DNA of 64,000 bases from an uncultured Acidobacteriota bacterium (GTDB taxonomy: Bacteria; Acidobacteriota; Vicinamibacteria; Vicinamibacterales; JAKQTR01), in assembly GCA_963700065.1 (NCBI GenBank), contig CAVOWJ010000005.1, positions 620,953-684,952 of the forward strand, read 5' to 3'. The position numbers were made by a program, and so were the translations under genes. Below are positions 45,356-63,223 of this stretch, one piece after another; the first letter of the stretch is position 1; each line of letters starts with the position of its first letter. The notes under the pieces were generated by a model. It searched no databases. It saw nothing but the letters and a program-made list of their open reading frames with translations, and was not told the origin of the DNA.

Positions 45356-45535
45356 GTCGCTCTCCTGGAAACCACGCGCAATCACCACAACCGCAAGCCG
45401 GCCGCGCGCGTAGACGGCAGGCCCCGGAATGAAAGCGGAAGTCGAAGAATGCTAGCTCGCGCCCCCGCCAGTGTCAATCGCCCGAACCGGCGGGAACAGG
45501 CCGTTTTCAGGCGCTAAATGGTAAGATCCGACACG

Positions 45536-45883
45536 ATGTCAAGCCCGAAGATCGAGACGTTTCCCAACCCCCGCCCAGGGCGGGAGTACGAAATCGCCAT
45601 CTCCGCGCCCGAGTTCACCTCGGTCTGCCCGATCACCGGCCAGCCAGATTTCGGCGAGATCCGGATCACGTACGTTCCGGACGAGCTCTGTATCGAGTTG
45701 AAATCGCTCAAGTTGTACCTCTTCGGCTACCGCCAGCGCGGCGTGTTCTACGAGGCCGCCACCAACCAGATTCTCGACGACCTGGTCGAGGCCTGCCGCC
45801 CGGTGCGCATGACCGTCGTCGGCGACTTCACTCCGCGCGGCGGCATCCGCACGGCCGTCACCGCCACGTACGCGAAGCCATGA
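45536..45883 (+). CDS. queF: NADPH-dependent 7-cyano-7-deazaguanine reductase
   Basis: [37 protein letters not shown] is the unimodular QueF signature. Confidence 0.9.
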
Positions 45884-46149
45884 GCGACGGCGAGCCGTTC
45901 GTGTTGCCTGTCGATGGCACGCTCGACCTGCACGCGTTCGAACCGCGCCATGCGACATCGGTGGTCGAGGAGTACGTCAACGAGGCGCACGCCCGCGGCC
46001 TGCCGGAGATCCGCATCGTGCACGGCCGCGGCGCCGGCGTGCTGCGCGGCATCGTTCAGGGCGCGCTCGAGAAGCACCCGCTCGTGGCCGCGTTCTGGGA
46101 CGAAGCCGAGTCCCACTTGGGAGCGACGGGGGCGCGGCTCGTGCCGTAG
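45880..46149 (+). CDS. Smr domain protein
   Basis: LDLHAFEP...[14 protein letters not shown] matches the Smr motif. ATGA overlap with queF. Confidence 0.75.
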
Positions 46150-46153
46150 TGGT

Positions 46154-54580: not shown

Positions 54581-56632
54581 TTACTTCGCCCAGCGCCCGA
54601 CCCACTCCAGAAACGTCCGGTACCAGAGCGCCGCGTTCTGGGGCTTGCCAATCCAGTGCCCCTCGTCGGGGAACACCAGCAGGCGCGACGGGATGCCCTG
54701 GCGCTGGAGTGTCGTGAAGAGCTGGAGCCCCTCGCCCACGGGCACGCGGAAGTCGAGCTCGCCGTGCGTGACGAGCGTGGGCGTCTTGAAGTTCTTCGCG
54801 TAGGTGTGTGGCGACCACTTCGCGTAGCCCTCGGGATTGGTCCAGGGCGTGCCGCCGAGATCCCACTCGGGGAACCACAGCTCCTCGGTGGCGCCGTACA
54901 TGCTCGTCAGGTTGAACACGCCGGCGTGCGAGACCAGCGCCTTGAAGCGGTCGGTGTGGCCGAGGAACCAGTTCATCATGTAGCCGCCGTACAACGCGCC
55001 GGCCGCCACCTTCCGTGACGCGTCGACATAGGGCAGCTTTTCGGCGTAGTCCACGCCCTTCATCAGGTCGTCGAACGGCTTGCCGCCCCAGTCGTTGCTG
55101 ATCTCGTCGGTGAACTTCTGGCCGAAGCCCGTCGAGCCCCGGAAGTTGACCATGAAGACGACGTAGCCCGCCGATGCGAAGACCTGGGCGTTCCAGCGGT
55201 ACGTCCATCCGTCGTTCCACGCGCCCTGCGGGCCGCCGTGCACGAGGTACAGGAGCGGGTACTTCACGCCGTCCTTGAACGTGTTCGGCTTCACGACCCA
55301 TGCCTGGACCGGCACCCCGCCCGCTCCCGCGAAGGTCACGCTCTCGGCCGGCTTGAGTGCGAACGTCGCGAGGAACTCCCGGTTGATCGTGGTGACGGCG
55401 GTCACGCCCGTCCCGTCGGCATTCGCGCGGTAGATCTCGGCCGGTGCCGTCAGCGACGCCTGGGAGAAGATGATGGTCTTGCCGTCGGGCGTCACCTGCA
55501 CGTCGCCGTTTGTCGCGTCCTTCAGCACCAGCCTGGGCGGTCCGCCGGCCAGATCGAACCGGTAGACGCGCACCCGGCCGTCTTCTTCGGCGGCCGTGTA
55601 GACCGCCTTCGAGTCCGGCGTGAACGTCCAGCCGTCCACGGCGCGGTCCCAGTCGGCCGTCAGCACGCGCCGCTCCCCTGATCTGCGATCGAGCAGGTTC
55701 AGCGTCCAGCGATCGGCCTCGAAGCCGGCCCGCGCCTGCGAACGCCACGCGAGGTACTTCCCGTCCGGCGTGTAGTGCGGGCCGCCGTCGGCGCCCAGCG
55801 CCGTCGTGATCTGCTTCGGCTGCGCGCCAGCCACGGTCAGGTCGATCGTGAAGATGTCGCTGTTCGTGCTGATGGCTTCGACCTTGTCGGTCTTCTTCGC
55901 GAACGCGATCTCCTTCGAGTCGGGCGAGAACGCATAGTCCTCGGGGCCGCCGAGCGAGAACGGCGGCACGTCGGACGTGCCCGGCGTCAGGTCGCGCGGC
56001 GGAGCCGAACCGTCGGCCGGCATCAGGAACAGGTGGCTGTAGGTGCCCTGCCGCCACGCGGTCCAGTGCCTGAACATCAGCCCGTCGGCCAGGTATGCCT
56101 TGACCTTCGATTCGTCGCGCGCCTTCAGCTCGCGCTCGTGGCAGGCTGCATCGGCACACGCCGGGAAGACCTCGGACACAAAAGCGATCCACTTTCCGTC
56201 GGGCGACCAACTGACGCCCGAGGCTTCCGTGGCGATGGAGGTGAGCTTCCTCGGCTCGCCCCCGGACGCGGGGATCACCCAGACCTGCGAGCCGCCGTCG
56301 CGGTTCGACACGAACGCCAGCTGCCTGCCGTCCGGAGACCAGCGCGGCCGATCTTCCGACCGATCCGTCCCCGCCACCTTGACCGGCGCGCCGCCTGCCA
56401 CCGGCACGATCCAGATGTCGTTGTTGCGCGTGTTACGGTCGAGGCTCACGTCCGTGACGACGAAAGCGATCTTCGTGCCGTCGGGCGAGAGCTGCGGGTC
56501 GGACACCCGCTTCAACTTCAGCATCTCGTCCACGGTGAACGCCGCCGGACCCTGCGCCCAGGCGGTGCTCGCGGCGAGCGTCAGCAATCCAAGAATCAGC
56601 GTCGTGTTGAGAATCAGCCTGCAGCGTGACAT
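54581..56632 (-). CDS. S9-family (prolyl oligopeptidase/DPP-like) protein with an N-terminal beta-propeller; nucleophile Ser replaced by Leu
   Basis: Signal peptide MSRCRLILNTTLILGLLTLAASTAWAQG. TolB-like repeats. The C-terminal hydrolase has GELDFRVP and DEGHW, but GALYGGYM appears where GxSxGG is expected (Leu codon TTG at 54992-54994). Confidence 0.8.
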   Translation of the reverse strand: MSRCRLILNTTLILGLLTLAASTAWAQGPAAFTVDEMLKLKRVSDPQLSPDGTKIAFVVTDVSLDRNTRNNDIWIVPVAGGAPVKVAGTDRSEDRPRWSPDGRQLAFVSNRDGGSQVWVIPASGGEPRKLTSIATEASGVSWSPDGKWIAFVSEVFPACADAACHERELKARDESKVKAYLADGLMFRHWTAWRQGTYSHLFLMPADGSAPPRDLTPGTSDVPPFSLGGPEDYAFSPDSKEIAFAKKTDKVEAISTNSDIFTIDLTVAGAQPKQITTALGADGGPHYTPDGKYLAWRSQARAGFEADRWTLNLLDRRSGERRVLTADWDRAVDGWTFTPDSKAVYTAAEEDGRVRVYRFDLAGGPPRLVLKDATNGDVQVTPDGKTIIFSQASLTAPAEIYRANADGTGVTAVTTINREFLATFALKPAESVTFAGAGGVPVQAWVVKPNTFKDGVKYPLLYLVHGGPQGAWNDGWTYRWNAQVFASAGYVVFMVNFRGSTGFGQKFTDEISNDWGGKPFDDLMKGVDYAEKLPYVDASRKVAAGALYGGYMMNWFLGHTDRFKALVSHAGVFNLTSMYGATEELWFPEWDLGGTPWTNPEGYAKWSPHTYAKNFKTPTLVTHGELDFRVPVGEGLQLFTTLQRQGIPSRLLVFPDEGHWIGKPQNAALWYRTFLEWVGRWAK

Positions 56633-56667
56633 CCCCTTGCCCCCTGTCCCTTGCCCCTTGCCCCTGT
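56633..56667. repeat. C-rich heptamer array (CCCCTTG family)
   Basis: ccccttg ccccctg tcccttg ccccttg cccctgt, between the divergent S9 and SNF2 genes. Confidence 0.85.
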
Positions 56668-56697
56668 CCGGTCCCGAGAATAGCACGCCCCTTGCGT

Positions 56698-59238
56698 ATG
56701 GATCCGCCGTCGCGCGCGGCTTCGGCCGGAAACAGCCCGAAGGCCTCGGAGACGCGTGATCACCGTGGCAGTTTCTGCCACGCCCCCAGGCCCCGGAGGT
56801 GGCGGTTCCTGCACTCGCCCGTACAGGCAGGCACGACAGTCGACGTGCGTGGGCGCCGCTGGCTCCTGCAGGCGACGGTGCCGCGCGCGGACTGCACCGA
56901 GCTGCATCTTGCGCCGGCAGCCTGGTCTGGCGCGGCCCCGGCTCCCGGCTGCCTCGTGCTGCTCGAGCCTTTCGATCGGCCCGTCTCCCTCGGCCGCTCC
57001 GCCCGCCTCCGCGTGGTCTCGCGCCGCGCCTGGATGGCGGCGCTCAGGGCGGCATGGCTCGGCCGCCGCGAGCCGGATGGCCTGGCAGGAGCGGCCCGCG
57101 CCGACGCGGATCTCCTGCCGCATCAGCTCGAGCCCGCCCTCGCCGTCGTCCGCCACGGTGCGAGGCGTGTGCTCCTCGCCGACGCCGTGGGCCTCGGCAA
57201 GACGGTCGAGGCGGGCTTCGTGCTGGCCGAGCTCCGCGAGCGCTCGATGCTCGACCGCGCGCTCGTGCTCGCACCGCCCGGCCTCTGCGATCAGTGGTGC
57301 GCCGAGCTCTCGGCCCGCTTCGGGCTCGACGCCGCGGTGGCGGATGCCGGCTGGCTCCGCTCGCTCCGCCCGGTGCTGCCGCCCGGCGCCAATCCCTGGT
57401 CCACTCCGGGTATTCGCGTGGCGTCGATCGACTTCGCCAAGCGGCCCGAAGCGCGGCGCAGCATGGAACACCTCGGCTGGGATGCCGTCGTCGTCGACGA
57501 AGCGCACCTCGCGGCCGGTGACAGCGAGCGCAGGGCCGCGGCGCACGCGTACGCGTCACGCGCGCGTGTGGTGCTGCTGCTGACCGCGACGCCGCACAGC
57601 GGGGATGCGCGCGCCTTCCTCTCGTTGTGCCGGATCGGCGCGCTCACCTTCCACGATCCGCTCGTCATGTTCCGACGAACCCGCGAGCAGGCCGGCATCG
57701 CCGGCCGGCGGCGCGTTCATCTGCACAGGGTCGAACCCGCCGCCGCCGAGCGTGCGGTGCGCGAGGGCCTTGATCAGTACGTGCGGGCGGTCTGGGCCCG
57801 CCGAAGCGGCGCCGAAGGCCGCGATGCGCGCCTGGCGATGACCGTGCTCCTCAAGCGCTCGCTCTCGGGCATGGAACCGCTGCGCCGATCGCTCGCCGCG
57901 CGTATCGACCGGCTGGGCGAGCAGGCAGGCGCCGCCGACGCGCAGTTGCCGCTGCCGTGGGCGGAGGAAGACGAAGCCGACGCGGCGCCGCACGCGGTGC
58001 TTGCGGCACCGGGGCTCGACAATGAGCACGAGGAGCGGAGCATGCTGTCGGCCCTTGTCGACGGTGCGGCGCTCGCCGCGCGGCACGATTCGAAGCTGCG
58101 CGCACTCGAGCGGATCCTCACGCGGGTCAACGAGCCCGTCATCATCTTCACCGAGTACCGCGACACGCTCGAGTCGCTGCGCGCGGCGGCCGGCCCCGAT
58201 GCGGCCGTCCTGCACGGCGGCATGGACCGGTTCGAGCGGGCGGACGCGGTTCACGCGTTCACCAGCGGGCGCGCGCGCGTGCTGCTCGCCACCGACGCGG
58301 CCGGCGAAGGCCTGAATCTGCAGCAGGGCTGCCGCCTCGTCGTCAATCTCGAGTTGCCCTGGAACCCCATGCGGCTCGAGCAGCGCATCGGCCGCGTGGA
58401 TCGCATCGGCCAGCGGCGGACCGTCCATGTGATCAACCTGCTGGCGGCCGGCACGGCGGAGGCGGACATCCTGGTCCGCCTGGCGCGCCGCCTCGAGCGT
58501 GCCAGACAGACCGTCGGCGCGGTGGCCGAGGTGCTGGGCCCCGCAGGCGACCGCGTGGTGGCCGCCTGGCTCGGCGTCGACAAGGCCGGCGGGGACGCCG
58601 TGACCGGAACCGGGCCTCCGCGTGAAGGGCCGCTGCCGCGGACCATTCGCCGTCCCGACCTGCGCGCCGCCGGTGTCGAAGCGGCAGCGCAGTCGATGAA
58701 GCAGCGGCACGTGATGCGCGCCGGGCGCCGCTCGGCGCGTGCCCGCGCCGGCCGGGCGCGAGCGGTGACGCGCGGCGGAGTTCTGGCGACGGCTGTACGC
58801 CGCTCGAAAGGCGAGGCGTGGGGCGGCCGCGAAGGCCTGCTGGTGGTCTTCCGCCGACATGAGCCGCTGTCGTGGGGCCGTGGCACGTTTTACGACCTGG
58901 TGCCGGTCTTCGCCGAGGGCCGGTGGCCGGCCATGCGCCGGCGCGGTGACGTGCGTGCGCTGGCGGAGTCCGCGATGACGGCCGCCGTGCCGGGAATGGC
59001 CGCGCGCGTTCCGCCGCGCCACACGGCGGCCGGGGCCCCGGACCAGCCCTTCGATCGGGACGCCCTGCTCACGGCCCGTCTGGCGGGACGACGGTCGATC
59101 CAGCGCGGCCTCTTCGATCGACGGGCGGAGCGAGATGCCGACGATGCCGTGGAACCCGCGGGGGAGGCTGATCGCGCGGGGCCTGATGCCGCAACGCCGC
59201 CGCCCGAACCGCTGCTGCTCCTGTTCGTCACGTCATGA
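56698..59238 (+). CDS. SNF2-family helicase-like ATPase with an uncharacterised ~260-aa C-terminal extension
   Basis: Motif I LLADAVGLGKT, motif II VVVDEAHL, motif III LLLTATPHSGD, C-lobe LLATDAAGEGLNLQ and LEQRIGRVDRIGQ. The start at ATG 56698 is assumed. Confidence 0.8.
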   Translation: MDPPSRAASAGNSPKASETRDHRGSFCHAPRPRRWRFLHSPVQAGTTVDVRGRRWLLQATVPRADCTELHLAPAAWSGAAPAPGCLVLLEPFDRPVSLGRSARLRVVSRRAWMAALRAAWLGRREPDGLAGAARADADLLPHQLEPALAVVRHGARRVLLADAVGLGKTVEAGFVLAELRERSMLDRALVLAPPGLCDQWCAELSARFGLDAAVADAGWLRSLRPVLPPGANPWSTPGIRVASIDFAKRPEARRSMEHLGWDAVVVDEAHLAAGDSERRAAAHAYASRARVVLLLTATPHSGDARAFLSLCRIGALTFHDPLVMFRRTREQAGIAGRRRVHLHRVEPAAAERAVREGLDQYVRAVWARRSGAEGRDARLAMTVLLKRSLSGMEPLRRSLAARIDRLGEQAGAADAQLPLPWAEEDEADAAPHAVLAAPGLDNEHEERSMLSALVDGAALAARHDSKLRALERILTRVNEPVIIFTEYRDTLESLRAAAGPDAAVLHGGMDRFERADAVHAFTSGRARVLLATDAAGEGLNLQQGCRLVVNLELPWNPMRLEQRIGRVDRIGQRRTVHVINLLAAGTAEADILVRLARRLERARQTVGAVAEVLGPAGDRVVAAWLGVDKAGGDAVTGTGPPREGPLPRTIRRPDLRAAGVEAAAQSMKQRHVMRAGRRSARARAGRARAVTRGGVLATAVRRSKGEAWGGREGLLVVFRRHEPLSWGRGTFYDLVPVFAEGRWPAMRRRGDVRALAESAMTAAVPGMAARVPPRHTAAGAPDQPFDRDALLTARLAGRRSIQRGLFDRRAERDADDAVEPAGEADRAGPDAATPPPEPLLLLFVTS

Positions 59239-62200
59239 TCGCCGGCGTCAGCGGTCCGCTCGTGTCGGGACACTACGCCGAGCACCTGCTCGGCGCCGCG
59301 TTCGCCGGCCGGCTCGGCGAGCGCACGAGAGATCGTGCCCGCCGCCGCGTGCGCGCGTGGTGGCGGCGCGAAGGGGCGCGGCTTGGTCCGGCGTCGCCGC
59401 TGCGATCGATGTTCGATCTGGGCGCGGCTCCCCTGATGGATCTGCTTGGCTTCTCCGCGCGCCACCCCAGGGAGACGGCCCGCGGCGCGCTGCTGTGCGG
59501 CGAGGCGGCGTCGGCTTCGCTGTCGGTGCCGCTCATCCTGGCCACCTGGGGCTCGCGGCTCGATCTGCTGTGGAGCGAGGTGGCGCGCGAAGGCGCGCGC
59601 CTCGACAGCCGCTGGGCCTTCTGCTTCAACGGCACGGCGCTCCGCCTGTGCGACAGCCGCAACACCTTTGCCAGGAGCTATCTCGAATTCGAGTTCGACG
59701 CGCTCTTCGATCATCCGGCGGCGATGTCGCTCTTCTGGGGGCTCCTCCGGTCGGAAGCCGTGCCCGCGCTTGCCTCGGCCGTCGCGCTGGCGTCGGCCAG
59801 GCACGGGGTTGCGGTCTCGGCCGCGCTTCGCGACGGCGTGCGCGAGGCCCTGTTGCTCTTCCTCCAGGGCATGCTGGGCGCCCGCGCGGGCCGGAGGCCA
59901 GCCGCCCGCGGCCGTGATTCCGCGGCCTCGGTCCTCGACCAGGCGTTCATCCTCGTCTACCGGGTACTCTTCCTCCTCTTCGCCGAGTCGCGCGCCCTCG
60001 TGCCGATCTGGCATCCAATCTACCGCCGCGGTTACTCGCTGGAGGCGCTCCGGCGGCAGGCCGCATCGCCTGGCAGGGAGCGCGGCCTCTGGGAGGCGCT
60101 TCAGGCGGTGTCGCGCCTCGCGCACGCCGGCTGCCACGCCGGCTCGCTCGTGGTCGAGCCGTTCAACGGGCGGCTCTTCGCGCCGGCGCGCGCGCCGCTC
60201 GCCGAACGCGGCCACCTCGACGACGGCGTGGTCGCGCGGGCCCTCACGGCGCTCACGACACGCGTGGTGGGCGGGCGGCGCGAACACGTCTCGTTCGGGG
60301 ATCTCGGCGTCGAGCAACTCGGCGCGGTGTACGAGAGCGTTCTGGACTACGAGCTTCATTGGGACTGTTTCAGAACCTGCGTACAGCGGAAGGAGCAAGC
60401 CGCAAGAACGGGTTCTGAAACCGCTTCCAGGAACGGTTCGGTAACCTGTGTGCTGCAGCCCGATCGGGCCGCGAGAACGGACCATGACACCGCCTGTCGT
60501 GTTCGGCTGGTCAGCCGCGGCGAGGTCCGGAAGTCCACCGGCACGTTCTACACGCCGCGGTCCATTACGGAGTACATCGTCGGGCGCACCCTGCGGCCGC
60601 TTGTCGAGCACGCCACGGCCGACGCCATTCTCCGGCTGCGCGTGCTCGATCCGGCCATGGGCAGCGGCGCCCTGCTCGTCGCCGCCTGCCACTGCCTGGC
60701 CGCCGCCTACGAAGCGGCCGTCGTGCGCGAACGAGGCTGCTTCGCGTCCGACATTACCGACGCCGACCGCGCGGGCTACCGGCGGCTGGTTGCGCAGCAC
60801 TGCCTCTACGGCGCCGACGTCAATCCGATGGCCGTCCAGGTGGCCCGCCTCTCGATGTGGCTGACGACGCTCGCGCGCGGCCGTCCCCTGTCCTTCCTGG
60901 ACCACCGGTTCGTCGCCGGCGACAGTCTCGTCGGCGCCTCGCTCGACGATGTGCAGCGGCAGCCGCCGGGCGGGAAGCGCCTGGCGCGGGCGCAGGGCCC
61001 GCTCCCTCTCTTCGAAGACGATGCGGCCGCGTCGGCGATGAGGACGGTGATGCCGATCCGCGCGCGCCTGGCCGACACGCCCGATGACTCGGCGCAGGCG
61101 GTGCACGCGAAAGAGCGCCTGCTGGCTGAGACGCTCGCGCCGTCTTCCGCCATGACCGCCCTCCGCCGCGTCGCCGACCTCTGGTGCGCGTGCTGGTTCT
61201 GGGAAAGCCGCGACGTGCCGCCGCCGGGGCCGGCCGAGTTCAGCGATTTGGCAGCGGCGCTCCGCGGCCGTGCCGCCAGCCTTCCGCCGTCGATCGCGCA
61301 GCCGCGCTTCGACGAGGCGAACCGGATTGCGAGCGCCCGCCGGTTCCTGCACTGGACGATCGCGTTCCCGGAGGTGTTCTTCGATGCCGGCGGCGCGCCG
61401 CTGGCGGAACCGGGGTTCGATGCCATCATCGGCAACCCGCCGTGGGAGATGATGCGGGGCGATGCCGGGGAGGCGGACGCCCGCGGGGCGCGCAGGGCCT
61501 CGGCCGCCAGACTTACGCGCTTCACCCGTCAGTCCGGCATCTACCGGGCGTGCGCCGAGGGCCACGCGAACCAGTATCAGCTCTTCGTCGAGCGCAGCGT
61601 AAGCCTGCTCAGGCGCGGCGGCCGGCTGGGCCTTGTGTTGCCCTGGGGCCTGGCGTCGGATCATGGAAGCGCAGCCCTGAGGCGCATGCTCTTCGAGCGC
61701 TGCGACACGGATGCCATCGTCGGATTCGAGAACAGCGCGGGGATCTTCCCCATTCACCGCGGCGTGCGCTTCCTGCTGCTCACGGCGACAGCGGGCAGGC
61801 CGACGGGAGAGACACGGTGCCGGTTCGGCGAACGGGATCCGGCCGTCCTGGCAGACATCGAGCACTCGCCGGAGCCCGAGGCCGCGGGCGCGCGGGCTGT
61901 CACGCTGACGCCCGCGCTGCTCAAGCGGCTGTCAGGCCCCGGGCTCGCGATCCCCTCCATCAGGAGCACCGAGGAGCTCAGGATCGCCGAACGCCTGGTC
62001 GCCCGATGGCCCGCGCTCTCTGCCGCACAAGGATGGGCCGCGCGGTTCGGGCGCGAGTTGAACCGGAGCGACGATCGGCAGCTTTTCTCGGCGGGCGGCG
62101 CGGGCATGCCGGTCGTCGAAGGCAAGCACGTCGAACCGTACGCCGTTCACGCGGACCGCTGCGAGCTGCGGCTGGCGCAGGGAGCCGCGCTGCCGGCCCG

Positions 62201-62762
62201 CGAGCTTCGCGCGGCGGCGCGCCGGCACCGGCTGGCCTACCGCGACGTGGCGTCGGCATCCAACCGGCTCACGCTCATCGCCGCCATCGTGCCGCCAGGC
62301 GCGGTCACCGTGCACACGCTCTTTTGCCTGCGCGGCGCCATGCCGCTCGGCGATCAGGCGGCGCTCTGCTGCCTGCTCAACAGCTTCGTGGCGAACTGGC
62401 TCGTCCGGATGTGGGTGACGACGCACCTGGGCACGTCCACTGTCGAGCGCCTGCCGGTGCCGCGGCCTCCGGCGGCGTCGTTCGCGGCCGGCCTCCTTCG
62501 GAGCCTCGGGCACCGGCTGCTGAAGTCCGCCGGCCAGGACGCCGCCGCCCAGGCTGAGGCGCAGGGGCTCGCCGCGGCGCTGTACGGCCTCACGGCCGGG
62601 GAGTTCGCCGTGGTGCTCGAGACGTTTCCGCTGGTCGAGGCGTATGTCAGGGCCGCCGCCGCGGAGAGCCACCGGCGGCTGGCGGCCGGCTCGGGGCGGG
62701 TATACACTTTCGCGTGTGAGACCGGCATCCCGGACCATTCATCCGACAGGGGGCATCAATGA
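59235..62762 (+). CDS. Large N6-adenine DNA methyltransferase, Eco57I/PglX-like, with unknown N-terminal ~330 aa and a C-terminal specificity-like region
   Basis: ATGA overlap with the helicase gene. TGTFYTP, motif I VLDPAMGSGALLVAA, motif IV IIGNPPW. Downstream GRELNRSDD...VVEGKHVEPY is typical of this enzyme class. Confidence 0.8.
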   Translation: MIAGVSGPLVSGHYAEHLLGAAFAGRLGERTRDRARRRVRAWWRREGARLGPASPLRSMFDLGAAPLMDLLGFSARHPRETARGALLCGEAASASLSVPLILATWGSRLDLLWSEVAREGARLDSRWAFCFNGTALRLCDSRNTFARSYLEFEFDALFDHPAAMSLFWGLLRSEAVPALASAVALASARHGVAVSAALRDGVREALLLFLQGMLGARAGRRPAARGRDSAASVLDQAFILVYRVLFLLFAESRALVPIWHPIYRRGYSLEALRRQAASPGRERGLWEALQAVSRLAHAGCHAGSLVVEPFNGRLFAPARAPLAERGHLDDGVVARALTALTTRVVGGRREHVSFGDLGVEQLGAVYESVLDYELHWDCFRTCVQRKEQAARTGSETASRNGSVTCVLQPDRAARTDHDTACRVRLVSRGEVRKSTGTFYTPRSITEYIVGRTLRPLVEHATADAILRLRVLDPAMGSGALLVAACHCLAAAYEAAVVRERGCFASDITDADRAGYRRLVAQHCLYGADVNPMAVQVARLSMWLTTLARGRPLSFLDHRFVAGDSLVGASLDDVQRQPPGGKRLARAQGPLPLFEDDAAASAMRTVMPIRARLADTPDDSAQAVHAKERLLAETLAPSSAMTALRRVADLWCACWFWESRDVPPPGPAEFSDLAAALRGRAASLPPSIAQPRFDEANRIASARRFLHWTIAFPEVFFDAGGAPLAEPGFDAIIGNPPWEMMRGDAGEADARGARRASAARLTRFTRQSGIYRACAEGHANQYQLFVERSVSLLRRGGRLGLVLPWGLASDHGSAALRRMLFERCDTDAIVGFENSAGIFPIHRGVRFLLLTATAGRPTGETRCRFGERDPAVLADIEHSPEPEAAGARAVTLTPALLKRLSGPGLAIPSIRSTEELRIAERLVARWPALSAAQGWAARFGRELNRSDDRQLFSAGGAGMPVVEGKHVEPYAVHADRCELRLAQGAALPARELRAAARRHRLAYRDVASASNRLTLIAAIVPPGAVTVHTLFCLRGAMPLGDQAALCCLLNSFVANWLVRMWVTTHLGTSTVERLPVPRPPAASFAAGLLRSLGHRLLKSAGQDAAAQAEAQGLAAALYGLTAGEFAVVLETFPLVEAYVRAAAAESHRRLAAGSGRVYTFACETGIPDHSSDRGHQ

Positions 62763-63223
62763 AGGGCAGTGACAAGGTCATCCAGATCCTGAACGATCGG
62801 CTCGCCGAGGAGTTGACGGCGATCAGCCAGTACATGGTGCACTCCGAGATGTGCGCCAACTGGGGATTCCAGAAGCTCCACGAGGCGATCGAGAAGCAGG
62901 CCATCGACGAGATGAAGCACGCCGAGATGCACATCGGCCGCATCCTCTTCCTCGAAGGCTCGCCAACCGTGTCGAAGCTGCACAAGATCAAGATCGGGCA
63001 GACGGTCGAGGAAATGGTCTCCATCGACGAAGGCGACGAACTCGACGCCATCAAGGCCTACAACGACTCAATCGCCGCATGTGAGGCCGCCGGCGACAAC
63101 GGCTCCGCTGACATGCTGAGGAAGATCCTCCAGGACGAAGAGCGCCACGCGGACTGGGGCGAGACCCAGCGCGAACTGATCGAGCAGATGGGGCTCCAGA
63201 ACTACCTCGCGAAGCAGGCGTAG
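62759..63223 (+). CDS. bfr: Bacterioferritin
   Basis: MKGSDKVIQILNDRLAEELTAISQYMVHS...EMKHAE...DEERHADW has the ferroxidase-centre ligands. The ATG overlaps the methyltransferase stop (ATGA 62759-62762). Confidence 0.9.
   Translation: MKGSDKVIQILNDRLAEELTAISQYMVHSEMCANWGFQKLHEAIEKQAIDEMKHAEMHIGRILFLEGSPTVSKLHKIKIGQTVEEMVSIDEGDELDAIKAYNDSIAACEAAGDNGSADMLRKILQDEERHADWGETQRELIEQMGLQNYLAKQA

What the first reader, a model, noticed from the sequence alone, without database searches (positions are those of the whole stretch)
56698..63223. SNF2 helicase and a 1175-aa PglX/Eco57I-like N6-methyltransferase chained by ATGA overlaps, with bacterioferritin chained on as well
The pair resembles the helicase plus adenine-methylase core found in DISARM class 1 (DrmD and DrmMI) and in BREX variants (BrxHII and PglX). 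None of the other signature genes is present (DrmA/B/C, BrxA/B/C, PglZ). No nuclease motif is evident to me in the helicase C-terminal ~260 aa or the methylase N-terminal ~330 aa.

The flanks are housekeeping genes (an S9 peptidase and bfr). The base composition looks native. bfr starts on the methylase stop codon (ATGA 62759-62762), implying co-translation with an iron-storage gene.

It could be a minimal two-gene restriction/exclusion system, an orphan epigenetic module, or a remnant.
Basis: partly seen in the sequence, partly recalled or inferred. Interest (0 to 1): 0.6.

Follow-up and report, generated by a model that had tools for sequence, protein, structure and literature searches.

The report
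Stand-alone helicase–adenine methylase gene pair
A soil acidobacterium carries only the "helicase plus DNA adenine methylase" core of phage-defence systems such as DISARM, ARMADA and BREX, and this pair sits at the same chromosomal spot in every related genome examined, so it looks like a fixed DNA-marking module rather than a complete restriction system; the neighbouring iron-storage gene is unrelated.

Summary
A Swi2/Snf2 helicase (56698/56809–59238) and a 1175-aa N6-adenine methyltransferase (59235–62762) overlap by ATGA, and bfr starts on the methylase stop codon.

The helicase model is RapA/BrxHII/DrmD-like. The methylase model is PglX/BrxX-like, with an MmeI-like domain order. All catalytic motifs of both enzymes are invariant across 54–59 homologues. 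No nuclease motif is conserved in either protein.

The pair is not a fragment. All 75 related loci with enough upstream DNA keep helicase→methylase, usually with overlapping or abutting stop and start codons. It lies in a conserved housekeeping block across Vicinamibacterales MAGs. No DrmA/B/C, YprA, DUF499, BrxC or PglZ partner was found in the window or within ±10 kb of 80 loci. Distant relatives (26–30% identity) on plasmids do sit in ARMADA/DISARM-like loci.

The target-recognition domain is not hypervariable, yet the pair evolves faster than its neighbours.

The bfr overlap is an accident. The ancestral stop (TAG/TAA) is TAC here, so translation reads through the bfr leader.

Best reading: a translocase-assisted, modification-only adenine methylation module. 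A nuclease-free exclusion system remains a live rival. Verdict: new variant of a known kind, interest about 0.55.

The parts
56698..59238 (+). Swi2/Snf2 (RapA/BrxHII/DrmD-like) helicase or translocase gene. The start is uncertain: ATG 56698, or about 56809 where conservation begins.
   Evidence: The AF2 model has pLDDT 80.5, and its best full-length PDB match is RapA. ATG 56698 is not conserved in L001 or L108.
56818..57021 (+). Helicase N-terminal beta-barrel (aa 41-108), Tudor-like as in BrxHII and RapA.
   Evidence: All-beta segment E47-E106 in the model. RapA is the best structural match. The architecture is described for BrxHII and BR helicases in PMC12839542. The Tudor assignment is by analogy and was not tested at domain level.
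57190..57204 (+). Helicase Walker A motif, GLGKT (G165-T169).
   Evidence: G165, G167, K168 and T169 are invariant in 54 sequences.
57496..57507 (+). Helicase DEAH box (D267-H270).
   Evidence: Invariant in 54 sequences.
58381..58413 (+). Helicase motif VI, QRIGRVDRIGQ (Q562-Q572).
   Evidence: Q562, R563, G565, R566, R569, G571 and Q572 are invariant.
58648..59235 (+). Fast-evolving helicase C-terminal alpha+beta region (aa 651-846). It has alpha-beta-beta-beta-alpha...beta order and a conserved tail motif, VQxGLFDRRAER.
   Evidence: Secondary structure. Mean pairwise identity is 27-32%; the only invariant residues are R670, R787, Q802, L805 and F806, with no conserved D/E/K triad. It is comparable to the inactive REase-like domain reported for BrxHII and RapA.
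59235..59238 (+). ATGA overlap of the helicase stop and the methylase start.
   Evidence: In 50 of 68 related loci the stop lies between -16 and +20 nt of the methylase start.
59235..62762 (+). PglX/DrmMI-like gamma-class N6-adenine DNA methyltransferase with its own target-recognition domain.
   Evidence: The AF2 model has pLDDT 83.5. Its best full-length PDB matches are BREX PglX/BrxX 8q56, 8c45 and 9ewz.
59235..59759 (+). Methylase N-terminal alpha/beta domain (aa 1-175). It occupies the position that the nuclease domain holds in MmeI-type enzymes. No catalytic D...(D/E)xK is conserved.
   Evidence: Element order is H56-70, E74-80, E87-92, E97-102, H109-122, E127-131, E135-140, E149-153. 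Invariant residues are only G51, P52, P66, L71, G72, W105, W127, R137, D140 and R147. There is no Pfam hit and no meaningful PDB sequence hit.
59760..60359 (+). Methylase helical bundle or spacer (aa 176-375).
   Evidence: Helices H176-H369. There is a weak, sub-threshold hit to Pfam MmeI_hel, E=0.031. 17% of columns are invariant.
60357..60495 (+). Variable, lower-GC in-frame linker insertion with a perfect 11-nt inverted repeat.
   Evidence: pLDDT is below 50 for aa 379-419. The inverted repeat is at 60367-60421. The same sequence occurs only in L001 and L002.
60648..60668 (+). Methylase motif I (SAM binding), DPAMGSG (D472-G478).
   Evidence: D472, M475, G476 and S477 are invariant in 59 sequences; P473, A474 and G478 are at 90% or more.
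61434..61445 (+). Methylase motif IV (catalytic), NPPW (N734-W737).
   Evidence: Invariant in 59 sequences.
61845..62684 (+). Target-recognition and C-terminal region (aa 871-1150).
   Evidence: It matches the C-terminal part of the Alw26I/Eco31I/Esp3I methylase model and of MTase_II models. Mean pairwise identity is 47-52% with 6-12% invariant columns, so it is not hypervariable. Identity to close relatives is 62-70%, similar to the other domains.
62703..62762 (+). Read-through tail of the methylase. The codon TAC (62703-62705) replaces the ancestral stop (TAG in L001, TAA in L002). Nineteen extra codons cross the bfr leader and ribosome-binding site, up to TGA at 62760-62762.
   Evidence: pLDDT is below 50 for aa 1153-1175.
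62759..63223 (+). Bacterioferritin gene. It is a neighbour, not part of the module.
   Evidence: TIGR00754 at 174 bits against a cut-off of 125.55. It lies downstream on the same strand only in L001, L002, L004, L006 and L108, each with a spacer.
56766..56780 (.). Palindrome TGGCAGTTTCTGCCA in the helicase leader; a candidate operator.
   Evidence: The motif GCAnnTTCTGC occurs upstream of the helicase in 15 of 62 loci, 16 occurrences against 0.36 expected.

Best explanation
This is a self-contained two-gene operon. The first gene encodes a RapA/BrxHII/DrmD-type Swi2/Snf2 ATPase that translocates on double-stranded DNA. The second encodes a PglX/DrmMI-type gamma-class N6-adenine DNA methyltransferase that carries its own target-recognition domain and has the MmeI-like domain order: N-terminal alpha/beta domain, helical spacer, methyltransferase, then recognition domain.

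Shown here:
- Both enzymes keep every catalytic motif.
- Neither has a conserved nuclease active site.
- The two genes are tightly coupled and always occur together.
- The pair lies at one syntenic position in the core chromosome of Vicinamibacterales-type Acidobacteriota.
- No third defence-type partner is nearby.

Inferred mechanism:
- The methylase marks adenines in a short, probably asymmetric motif on the cell's own chromosome. Asymmetry is expected from the PglX, DrmMI and MmeI relatives.
- The helicase uses ATP to move the complex along DNA, or to clear DNA-bound proteins, so that newly replicated unmethylated sites are found and modified.
- The poorly conserved helicase C-terminal region and its conserved tail motif probably dock on the methylase.
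- On its own the pair modifies DNA and does not cut it. It is a lineage-fixed epigenetic module derived from the same stock as the DISARM, ARMADA and BREX-3 cores, not a complete restriction system.

bfr is unrelated. Its overlap with the methylase stop results from a recent stop-codon loss.
For: Identity:
- PADLOC gives DrmD at 264 bits and DrmMI at 332 bits.
- The best full-length PDB match of the helicase model is RapA.
- The best full-length PDB matches of the methylase model are BREX PglX/BrxX.

Enzymes are intact:
- GLGKT, DEAH and QRxGRxxRxGQ are invariant in 54 helicases.
- DPAMGSG and NPPW are invariant or nearly so in 59 methylases.

No nuclease:
- No conserved acidic/lysine triad exists in the methylase N-terminal domain or the helicase C-terminus.
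- No Pfam or PDB sequence hit was found for these regions.

Obligate pairing:
- The helicase is upstream of the methylase in all 75 loci with enough upstream DNA.
- Stop and start lie within -16 to +20 nt in 50 of 68 loci.
- One database ORF carries Helicase_C and the methylase N-terminus in a single reading frame.

Stand-alone and vertically inherited:
- The same housekeeping block flanks the pair in the window and in relatives: sigma-54 regulator, radical SAM, histidine kinase, HU, QueF, Smr on one side; NrfD/Mo-oxidoreductase, TauE, rhodanese, amidohydrolase on the other.
- No recurrent extra helicase, ATPase or nuclease lies within ±10 kb.
- No defence hit was found in the other large window ORFs.
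- Methylase divergence correlates with that of its neighbours, Pearson 0.45-0.86.
- Close relatives are absent from viral contigs and plasmids.

Stable specificity:
- The recognition domain is about as conserved as the rest of the protein and shows no domain swap.

Precedent that a DrmMI can methylate without DrmD or DrmABC:
- Serratia DrmMI modifies ACACAG when only the two methylases are expressed, and more completely with the full system (bioRxiv 10.1101/2021.12.28.474362).
Against: - No methylation data exist for this family, so activity, motif and helicase dependence are all inferred.
- PglX alone is inactive in vitro and in vivo (PMC11341690). In every characterised system the homologous pair works with an effector.
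- The pair evolves markedly faster than its neighbours. Identity to L001 is about 71% for the pair against 86-94% for flanking genes. Mean identity is 50% and 46% for the pair against 61-90% for neighbours. The helicase C-terminal domain is only 27% conserved. This pattern is usual for conflict genes.
- An unlinked effector elsewhere in these genomes cannot be excluded, because only ±10 kb was seen.
- The alpha/beta fold assignments rest on secondary-structure order, not on a domain-level structure search.
Confidence: 0.5

Rival explanations
1. A minimal, nuclease-free exclusion system. The methylase marks self DNA. The helicase-methylase complex recognises unmethylated motifs on incoming DNA and blocks its replication or transcription by ATP-driven translocation, as in BREX. 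Alternatively it hands the DNA to a nuclease encoded elsewhere in the genome.
For: - Both proteins score best against defence-system models: DrmD, BrxHII and HmaA for the helicase; DrmMI and type IIG enzymes for the methylase.
- Homologous pairs are essential parts of experimentally active ARMADA II and class 1 DISARM.
- The pair evolves faster than its flanking genes, and the helicase C-terminal domain is the fastest part. The same is reported for the sensor-like inactive REase domain of BrxHII.
Against: - No effector is linked in the window or in 80 loci.
- The pair is not in a defence island, and no integrase or transposase neighbours were seen.
- The chromosomal position is syntenic across the lineage rather than patchy.
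- The recognition domain is not hypervariable, and no tandem repeats of the phase-variation type lie in the gene.
- In ARMADA II every component, including the YprA helicase, is required for defence.
Confidence: 0.3
2. A RapA-like transcription factor with a partner methylase. The helicase acts on stalled or post-termination RNA polymerase, as RapA does, and the methylase marks DNA co-transcriptionally. On this reading the module regulates gene expression and does not scan the genome.
For: - RapA is the closest solved relative by sequence, 195 bits.
- RapA is also the closest by full-length structure.
- A conserved palindromic motif upstream suggests regulated expression.
Against: - The NCBIfam RapA model scores 178 bits against a cut-off of 576.
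- The protein has one N-terminal beta-barrel where RapA has two.
- The same RapA-like architecture is generic to BrxHII, DrmD and HmaA helicases, so it does not point to RNA polymerase specifically.
Confidence: 0.1
3. A decaying remnant of a DISARM or ARMADA locus that lost its effector genes and no longer functions.
For: The pair is the sub-set of class 1 DISARM or ARMADA genes that would remain after loss of DrmABC or ArmC. It also falls far below the NCBIfam equivalog cut-offs.
Against: - Full-length genes with invariant catalytic motifs occur in 54-59 divergent sequences.
- Tight coupling is conserved.
- The pair is retained at the same locus in every related genome examined.
- The N-terminal domain family comprises at least 214 clusters at 50% identity with E<=1e-30.

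This is purifying selection, not decay.
Confidence: 0.04
4. The methylase and bacterioferritin are functionally coupled, co-translated as one unit that links DNA methylation to iron storage.
For: The ATGA overlap at 62759-62762. bfr also follows the methylase in five related loci.
Against: - The overlap exists only because the ancestral stop TAG/TAA is TAC here. Relatives have a 36-120 nt spacer with a conserved leader and ribosome-binding site.
- bfr is absent from that position in about 70 of 80 loci, and is on the opposite strand in two.
Confidence: 0.03

Closest known systems
Class 1 DISARM, the DrmD + DrmMI part (with DrmA, DrmB, DrmC)
   Same: - A Swi2/Snf2 helicase is followed by a large Eco57I-type N6-adenine methylase.
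- These are the best PADLOC models for both proteins.
- DrmMI methylates an asymmetric 6-bp motif.
   Different: - No DrmA, DrmB or DrmC.
- NCBIfam DrmD scores 308 bits against a cut-off of 610, and matches only the helicase core (aa 134-616).
- The methylase is about 150-200 aa shorter than DrmMI models and matches them only over aa 425-801.
- The pair is chromosomal, syntenic and lineage-fixed rather than in an island.
ARMADA type I/II, ArmA + ArmB (with the YprA-like ArmC, and ArmD in some)
   Same: - A BrxHII/RapA-like helicase and a PglX-like methylase occur as an adjacent gene pair.
- The nearest plasmid relatives of the window's methylase (26-30% identity) lie in loci of this type, next to a DruE/YprA-like giant helicase.
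   Different: - No YprA-family helicase-nuclease and no GajB-like ArmD.
- ARMADA needs all its components for defence and is often carried on mobile elements.
BREX type 3, BrxHII + PglXI (with BrxC, PglZ, BrxA, BrxF); BREX PglX/BrxX structures
   Same: - The methylase model aligns over its full length with PglX/BrxX (8q56, 8c45, 9ewz; E about 1e-16).
- The helicase has the BrxHII/RapA layout: beta-barrel, Swi2/Snf2 core, then a degenerate alpha+beta C-terminus.
   Different: - No BrxC, PglZ, BrxA or BrxB/F.
- NCBIfam BREX methylase models score 15-39 bits against cut-offs of 400-900.
- PglX has only a helical bundle at its N-terminus. This protein has an additional alpha/beta domain ahead of the bundle.
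BREX-related (BR) / Hma systems (DUF499 ATPase + N6-methylase + Swi2/Snf2 helicase)
   Same: A helicase plus methylase core with a Tudor / Swi2/Snf2 / inactive-REase helicase architecture. HmaA scores 188 bits.
   Different: No DUF499 ATPase, and no C-terminal active nuclease on the helicase.
Type IIG/IIL restriction-modification enzymes (MmeI, BpuSI, DrdV) and Type ISP (LlaGI)
   Same: - The domain order is N-terminal alpha/beta domain, helical spacer, gamma-class methylase, then recognition domain.
- There are hits to type IIG models and to Pfam MmeI_Mtase, plus a weak hit to MmeI_hel.
- BpuSI and DrdV are among the structural matches.
- Type ISP enzymes also couple an ATP motor to a methylase.
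   Different: - No conserved D...(D/E)xK in the N-terminal domain.
- The motor is a separate Swi2/Snf2 protein, not a fused type I-like ATPase with an Mrr nuclease.
Lineage-fixed orphan adenine methylases (Dam, CcrM). Comparison from general knowledge; not tested here.
   Same: A methylase of restriction-modification ancestry that has become a vertically inherited, core-genome gene in one lineage, with a stable specificity.
   Different: Dam and CcrM are small, recognise palindromes and work alone. This enzyme is a 1100-aa PglX-like protein that always comes with an ATP-dependent translocase.

Membership tests
DISARM class 1 | DrmA (helicase), DrmB (DUF1998) and DrmC (PLD) core triplet next to DrmD and DrmMI. 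PADLOC requires all five (PMC9252829). | tested here: not met
   No such genes among the window's neighbouring or large ORFs. None recur within ±10 kb of 80 related loci.
DISARM class 1 | DrmD equivalog (NCBIfam NF038317, cut-off 610 bits). | tested here: not met
   308 bits, covering the helicase core only, aa 134-616. The PADLOC DrmD model scores 264 bits.
DISARM class 1 | DrmMI-type N6-adenine methylase. | tested here: inconclusive
   The best PADLOC model is DrmMI at 332 bits, but only aa 425-801 match a 1347-position model. No curated cut-off is available.
ARMADA | YprA-family DExH helicase (ArmC) in an operon with the helicase-methylase pair. | tested here: not met
   Absent in the window and in 80 loci. 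Present next to the distant plasmid relatives.
BREX (types 1-6) | BrxC ATPase and PglZ, together with the PglX methylase. | tested here: not met
   No BrxC or PglZ hits. NCBIfam BREX methylase models score 15-39 bits against cut-offs of 400-900.
BREX PglX/BrxX fold | Full-length structural similarity: helical bundle, gamma-class methylase, recognition domain, C-terminal region. | tested here: met
   Foldseek top hits are 8q56, 8c45 and 9ewz, about 1130-1140 aligned columns, E 2e-16 to 6e-16, TM 0.37-0.41.
BR / Hma systems | DUF499 AAA+ ATPase (HmaC) with the methylase and the Swi2/Snf2 helicase. | tested here: not met
   No such ATPase in the window or in the loci. The definition comes from PMC12839542.
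Type IIG/IIL restriction-modification enzyme | Active PD-(D/E)xK nuclease domain fused N-terminal to the methylase. | tested here: not met
   An alpha/beta domain is present at aa 1-175. Its only invariant residues are G51, P52, P66, L71, G72, W105, W127, R137, D140 and R147, with no D...(D/E)xK. No Pfam or PDB sequence hit. Nuclease activity itself cannot be tested here.
Gamma-class N6-adenine DNA methyltransferase | SAM-binding motif I (xxGxG) located upstream of catalytic motif IV (NPPY/W). | tested here: met
   DPAMGSG at aa 472-478 and NPPW at aa 734-737, invariant or at least 90% conserved in 59 sequences. Pfam Eco57I scores 74.5 bits and N6_Mtase 45.3 bits, both above cut-off.
Swi2/Snf2 ATPase (RapA-like) | Walker A, DExH, motif III and motif VI; SNF2-related N-lobe plus Helicase_C. 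| tested here: met
   Pfam SNF2-rel_dom scores 38.4 bits and Helicase_C 85 bits, both above cut-off. The motifs are invariant. RapA is the top structural match. The RapA equivalog itself is not met: 178 bits against a cut-off of 576.
Bacterioferritin | TIGR00754 equivalog score at or above 125.55. | tested here: met
   174.2 bits over the full length.
Defence island / mobile element context | Patchy distribution, with neighbouring defence or mobility genes. | tested here: not met
   The pair sits in a conserved housekeeping block. Only distant relatives (22-33% identity) occur on viral contigs and plasmids.

The most novel reading that the evidence does not exclude
The pair is a domesticated, housekeeping epigenetic machine: a bacterial counterpart of the eukaryotic partnership between a remodeller and a DNA methyltransferase (DDM1 or LSH with DNA methyltransferases). 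A Swi2/Snf2 translocase would be needed for a PglX-type enzyme to maintain one-strand m6A marks on the chromosome of a whole bacterial order. The marks would serve gene regulation, replication or repair rather than immunity. The conserved palindrome upstream of the operon would be its regulatory switch.
Probability: 0.25. Interest if true: 0.8.

Novelty: new variant of a known kind. Interest (0 to 1): 0.55.

Why it matters
The BrxHII/DrmD-like helicase plus PglX/DrmMI-like methylase pair is the shared core of class 1 DISARM, ARMADA, BREX-3 and Hma/BR systems. What the pair does by itself is not known, because it has always been studied together with effector proteins.

Here the bare pair has been kept under selection, at a fixed chromosomal site, across a large and ecologically dominant group of soil Acidobacteria. 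This gives a minimal natural system for two questions:
- Does the translocase load, activate or guide the methylase?
- Can a defence-type module be domesticated for self-directed epigenetics?

Many of the related genomes are long contigs, several over 1 Mb, which look like long-read assemblies. If so, the methylation motif could be read from existing data.

There is also a practical caution. Tools that score single proteins would flag these genes as DISARM or BREX parts in hundreds of genomes that have no such system.

Tried and rejected
- **Looking for partners.** Pfam and PADLOC scans of 20 other window ORFs found only metabolic, regulatory and peptidase genes. Clustering about 960 ORFs from 80 loci and annotating every recurrent or large neighbour gave the same result.
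- **Smr nuclease as a partner.** The Smr-domain gene lies immediately upstream of the helicase in many relatives. In the window it stays with QueF, overlapping it by 4 nt, about 10.5 kb away from the pair. In L108 it is fused to QueF. It is therefore a synteny neighbour, not a component.
- **Nuclease folds.**
  - Pfam at E<=10 on methylase aa 1-177 and 176-375, helicase aa 610-846 and helicase aa 38-131 gave only a weak MmeI_hel hit.
  - A profile of the methylase N-terminal domain against PDB sequences gave only spurious matches to designed repeat proteins.
  - The BFVD search returned generic methylase folds. It also gave one weak match (E 0.02) to a type I R-subunit N-terminal domain protein.
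- **Presence or absence test.** I anchored a metagenome scan on the neighbouring S9 peptidase. Only two orthologous contigs had enough DNA, and both carried the pair. The rest were paralogues, so the test was uninformative.
- **Source of the window.** An exact look-up of the window's methylase found nothing on record.
- **Sigma-54 promoter.** The upstream palindrome was considered as a sigma-54 promoter and rejected. The GG-to-GC spacing is 10 nt, not 12.
- **Promoters and terminators.** The sigma-70 and terminator scans found nothing above chance.
- **Phase variation.** No tandem repeats of the phase-variation type were found in either gene.
- **Literature.** No paper found describes the pair as a stand-alone unit, or in Vicinamibacterales.

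Full report
**1. The observation**

The helicase runs from ATG 56698 to 59238 (846 aa). The methyltransferase is 59235-62762 (1175 aa). bfr is 62759-63223 (154 aa). Both junctions are ATGA overlaps.

Pfam finds SNF2-rel_dom and Helicase_C in the first protein, and Eco57I, N6_Mtase and MmeI_Mtase in the second. The third passes the bacterioferritin equivalog, 174 bits against a cut-off of 125.55. The divergent upstream gene is an S9/PD40 peptidase. GC content of the pair (0.72-0.74) is at the upper end of the window's range.

The helicase start is uncertain. ATG 56698 lies inside a conserved non-coding leader and reads AGG or AGA in relatives. Homologues are about 809-825 aa and conservation begins near codon 38-45. 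The first 38 residues of the model have pLDDT below 50.

**2. What the proteins are**

*Scores against defence models.* The helicase scores best on DrmD (264 bits), then BrxHII (229 bits) and HmaA. The methylase scores best on DrmMI (332 bits), then type IIG enzymes. Neither reaches a curated equivalog cut-off. DrmD scores 308 against 610. The BREX methylase models score 15-39 against 400-900.

*Helicase structure.* The AlphaFold model built on 54 homologues has pLDDT 80.5. [quoted passage not shown] Its best full-length PDB match is RapA, which is also the closest solved relative by sequence. This is the layout described for BrxHII, RapA and the BR/Hma helicases: Tudor domain, Swi2/Snf2 core, inactive REase-like domain, alpha+beta domain (PMC12839542).

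*Methylase structure.* The model built on 59 homologues has pLDDT 83.5 and pTM 0.84. Its best full-length matches are the BREX PglX/BrxX structures 8q56, 8c45 and 9ewz. CamA, M.BseCI, BpuSI, TaqI and DrdV follow.

*Domain order of the methylase.* There is an alpha/beta domain (aa 1-175), a helical bundle (aa 176-375, with a weak sub-threshold hit to MmeI_hel), an unstructured variable linker, the methylase lobes, and a recognition and C-terminal region. PglX has only the helical bundle at its N-terminus. MmeI has a nuclease domain followed by a helical spacer. The layout here is therefore MmeI-like.

**3. Are the enzymes alive, and is there a nuclease?**

In 54 helicases, GLGKT, DEAH, TATPH and QRxGRxxRxGQ are invariant. 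In 59 methylases, DPAMGSG and NPPW are invariant or at least 90% conserved.

The methylase N-terminal alpha/beta domain has an alpha-beta-beta-beta-alpha-beta order of elements, reminiscent of restriction-endonuclease folds. Its only invariant residues are G51, P52, P66, L71, G72, W105, W127, R137, D140 and R147. There is no D...(D/E)xK.

The helicase C-terminus (aa 651-846) also has an alpha-beta-beta-beta-alpha...beta order. It is the least conserved part, at 27-32% identity. Its only invariant residues are R670 and the tail motif R787, Q802, L805, F806.

Sequence searches of these regions against Pfam and PDB found nothing significant. There is one nuance: both proteins may carry degenerate nuclease-like folds. 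That fold assignment is inferred from secondary-structure order and from the literature. A domain-level structure search could not be run.

**4. Relatives and context: the decisive evidence**

*Size of the family.* The methylase has thousands of homologues, and full-length ones of 44-97% identity are abundant. A scan of one genome per species found at least 586 stretches that encode a relative. Only the best 80 were inspected. They share 43-71% identity and all are full length. They are almost all Vicinamibacterales or unclassified Acidobacteriota MAGs. Two carry other taxon labels but share the same synteny, so they are probably mislabelled. The N-terminal 375 aa alone finds 214 clusters at 50% identity with E<=1e-30.

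*Pairing.* In all 75 loci with enough upstream DNA, the helicase lies directly upstream on the same strand. In 50 of 68 loci its stop lies within -16 to +20 nt of the methylase start. One database ORF carries Helicase_C and the methylase N-terminus in a single frame.

*Neighbours.* The flanking genes are housekeeping genes in conserved order. On one side are a sigma-54 response regulator, a radical-SAM protein, a histidine kinase, HU, QueF and Smr. On the other are an NrfD/Fe-S protein with a molybdopterin oxidoreductase, TauE, rhodanese, an amidohydrolase and an aldehyde dehydrogenase. The window holds the same block at 38.2-46.1 kb. About 10.5 kb of lineage-specific genes follow (M14 peptidase, RACo, HEAT-repeat protein, S9 peptidase), then the pair, bfr and an amidohydrolase. 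A 2.7-Mb contig with a 63%-identical methylase has the same layout.

*No partner.* No additional helicase, ATPase, PLD, DUF1998, DUF499, BrxC or PglZ gene recurs near the pair.

*Mode of inheritance.* Pairwise divergence of the methylase correlates with that of its neighbours, Pearson 0.45-0.86. This fits vertical co-inheritance.

*Relatives on mobile DNA.* Plasmids and viral contigs hold only distant relatives, at 22-33% identity. The plasmid copies examined sit next to a DrmD/DpdE-like helicase and a giant DruE/YprA-like helicase. That is the ARMADA / class 1 DISARM arrangement described in 10.1101/2025.09.15.676423.

**5. Evolutionary tempo**

The recognition region is about as conserved as the rest of the protein: 47-52% mean identity and 6-12% invariant columns. 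Against close relatives the divergence is spread evenly over all domains, with no domain swap. No tandem repeats of the phase-variation type occur in either gene. This argues for a stable specificity.

The pair as a whole nevertheless evolves faster than its surroundings. Against L001 the flanking proteins are 86-94% identical, while the helicase and methylase are about 71%. Across loci the means are 50% and 46% for the pair against 61-90% for neighbours. That could reflect relaxed constraint or a continuing conflict. It is the main reason the defence rival keeps substantial weight.

**6. bfr**

bfr follows the methylase only in the window's own sub-clade: L001, L002, L004, L006 and L108. In each case there is a spacer. 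Alignment of the junction shows a conserved bfr leader and ribosome-binding site. The methylase stop is TAG in L001 and TAA in L002. The window has TAC at 62703-62705, so the methylase reads through 19 further codons to the TGA that overlaps the bfr ATG. That tail is predicted to be disordered. The 'chaining' of bfr is therefore a recent accident and not a functional link.

**7. Mechanism**

*Shown.* This is a tightly coupled operon of an intact Swi2/Snf2 ATPase and an intact gamma-class N6-adenine methylase with its own recognition domain. There is no conserved nuclease site and no linked effector. The pair is fixed in one lineage.

*Inferred.* The methylase marks a short, probably asymmetric motif on the host chromosome, as DrmMI (ACACAG), PglX and MmeI do. 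The translocase helps it find or reach unmethylated sites after replication. It probably docks through its variable C-terminal domain and conserved tail motif. The pair alone does not restrict DNA.

I give about 0.9 to the identity and the stand-alone, vertically inherited status. I give about 0.5 to the modification-only mechanism.

*Against the modification-only reading.* PglX needs partners to be active. Homologous pairs in ARMADA and DISARM act with effectors. The pair evolves fast.

*Rivals.*
- A nuclease-free or trans-acting exclusion system: 0.3.
- A RapA-like role in transcription: 0.1.
- A remnant: 0.04.
- Functional coupling with bfr: 0.03.

**8. Comparison and novelty**

The helicase-methylase pair is a recognised module of class 1 DISARM, ARMADA I/II, BREX-3 and BR/Hma. 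Every described system adds an effector or ATPase, and PADLOC requires all five genes to call DISARM I.

I found no description of the bare pair as a conserved unit, or of its fixation in Vicinamibacterales. It fails the membership tests for DISARM, ARMADA, BREX, Hma and type IIG enzymes on their defining partner or nuclease features, while sharing their core chemistry.

I rate it a new variant of a known kind, with interest about 0.55. It is not categorically new. It does offer a minimal system for asking what this widespread core does on its own, and a possible case of a defence module domesticated for self-directed epigenetics.

Noticed in passing
window 62703-62762: The methylase lost its stop codon. 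It is TAG in L001 and TAA in L002, but TAC here. Translation reads through the conserved bfr leader and ribosome-binding site for 19 codons. This creates the ATGA overlap with bfr and a disordered C-terminal tail.
   Followed up: yes
window 56766-56780; upstream of the helicase in L001, L019, L020, L027, L031, L033, L035, L036, L051, L057, L063, L067, L068, L108: The palindrome TGGCAGTTTCTGCCA lies in the helicase leader. The core motif GCAnnTTCTGC occurs upstream of the helicase gene in 15 of 62 loci, 16 occurrences against 0.36 expected from the background rate. It is a candidate operator. The spacing does not fit a sigma-54 promoter.
   Followed up: partly
window 56674-56700: A conserved leader motif, CCCGAGAATAGCACGCCCCTTGCGTA, is shared with L001 and L108.
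   Followed up: partly
window 56633-56665: A C-rich heptamer, CCCCTTG, is repeated 4.7 times. It lies in the divergent region between the probable S9 peptidase start (ATG at 56632 on the minus strand, followed by a signal-peptide-like sequence) and the helicase. L108 has a different short repeat, CCCGAGT, at the equivalent place.
   Followed up: no
window 60357-60495: A lower-GC in-frame insertion of about 135 nt sits in the disordered methylase linker. It has a perfect 11-nt inverted repeat, GTTTCAGAACC/GGTTCTGAAAC, and an imperfect 24-nt direct repeat. The same DNA occurs only in L001 and L002. A similar peptide is present in P0009 but absent from the closer P0004. It may be a small mobile or hairpin-forming insertion that is tolerated in frame.
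   Followed up: partly
window 45518-46150; L108 1-7: QueF and a small Smr-domain ORF overlap by 4 nt in the window. In L108 they are annotated as one 203-aa QueF+Smr protein. In many relatives this pair lies immediately upstream of the helicase. An association of QueF with Smr is unusual and unexplained.
   Followed up: partly
protein P0325 (932 aa; metagenomic): A single ORF carries Helicase_C at aa 243-291 and the methylase N-terminal domain at aa 554-893. It is either a genuine helicase-methylase fusion or an assembly or frameshift artefact at the overlapping junction.
   Followed up: partly
L081 (Thermus thermophilus plasmid), L082 (Chlorohelix plasmid), L083 (Roseomonas plasmid): The distant relatives sit in ARMADA/DISARM-like loci with a DruE/YprA-like helicase of 1700-1840 aa. 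Extra genes lie between or beside the pair: an NYN-domain protein, a four-helix-bundle protein, an EVE-domain protein, a DUF2357 protein and a 3'-5' exonuclease.
   Followed up: partly
L052, L053: Two MAGs labelled Bifidobacterium sp. and Betaproteobacteria carry the pair within the same Vicinamibacterales synteny block. The contigs are probably mis-binned or mislabelled.
   Followed up: no
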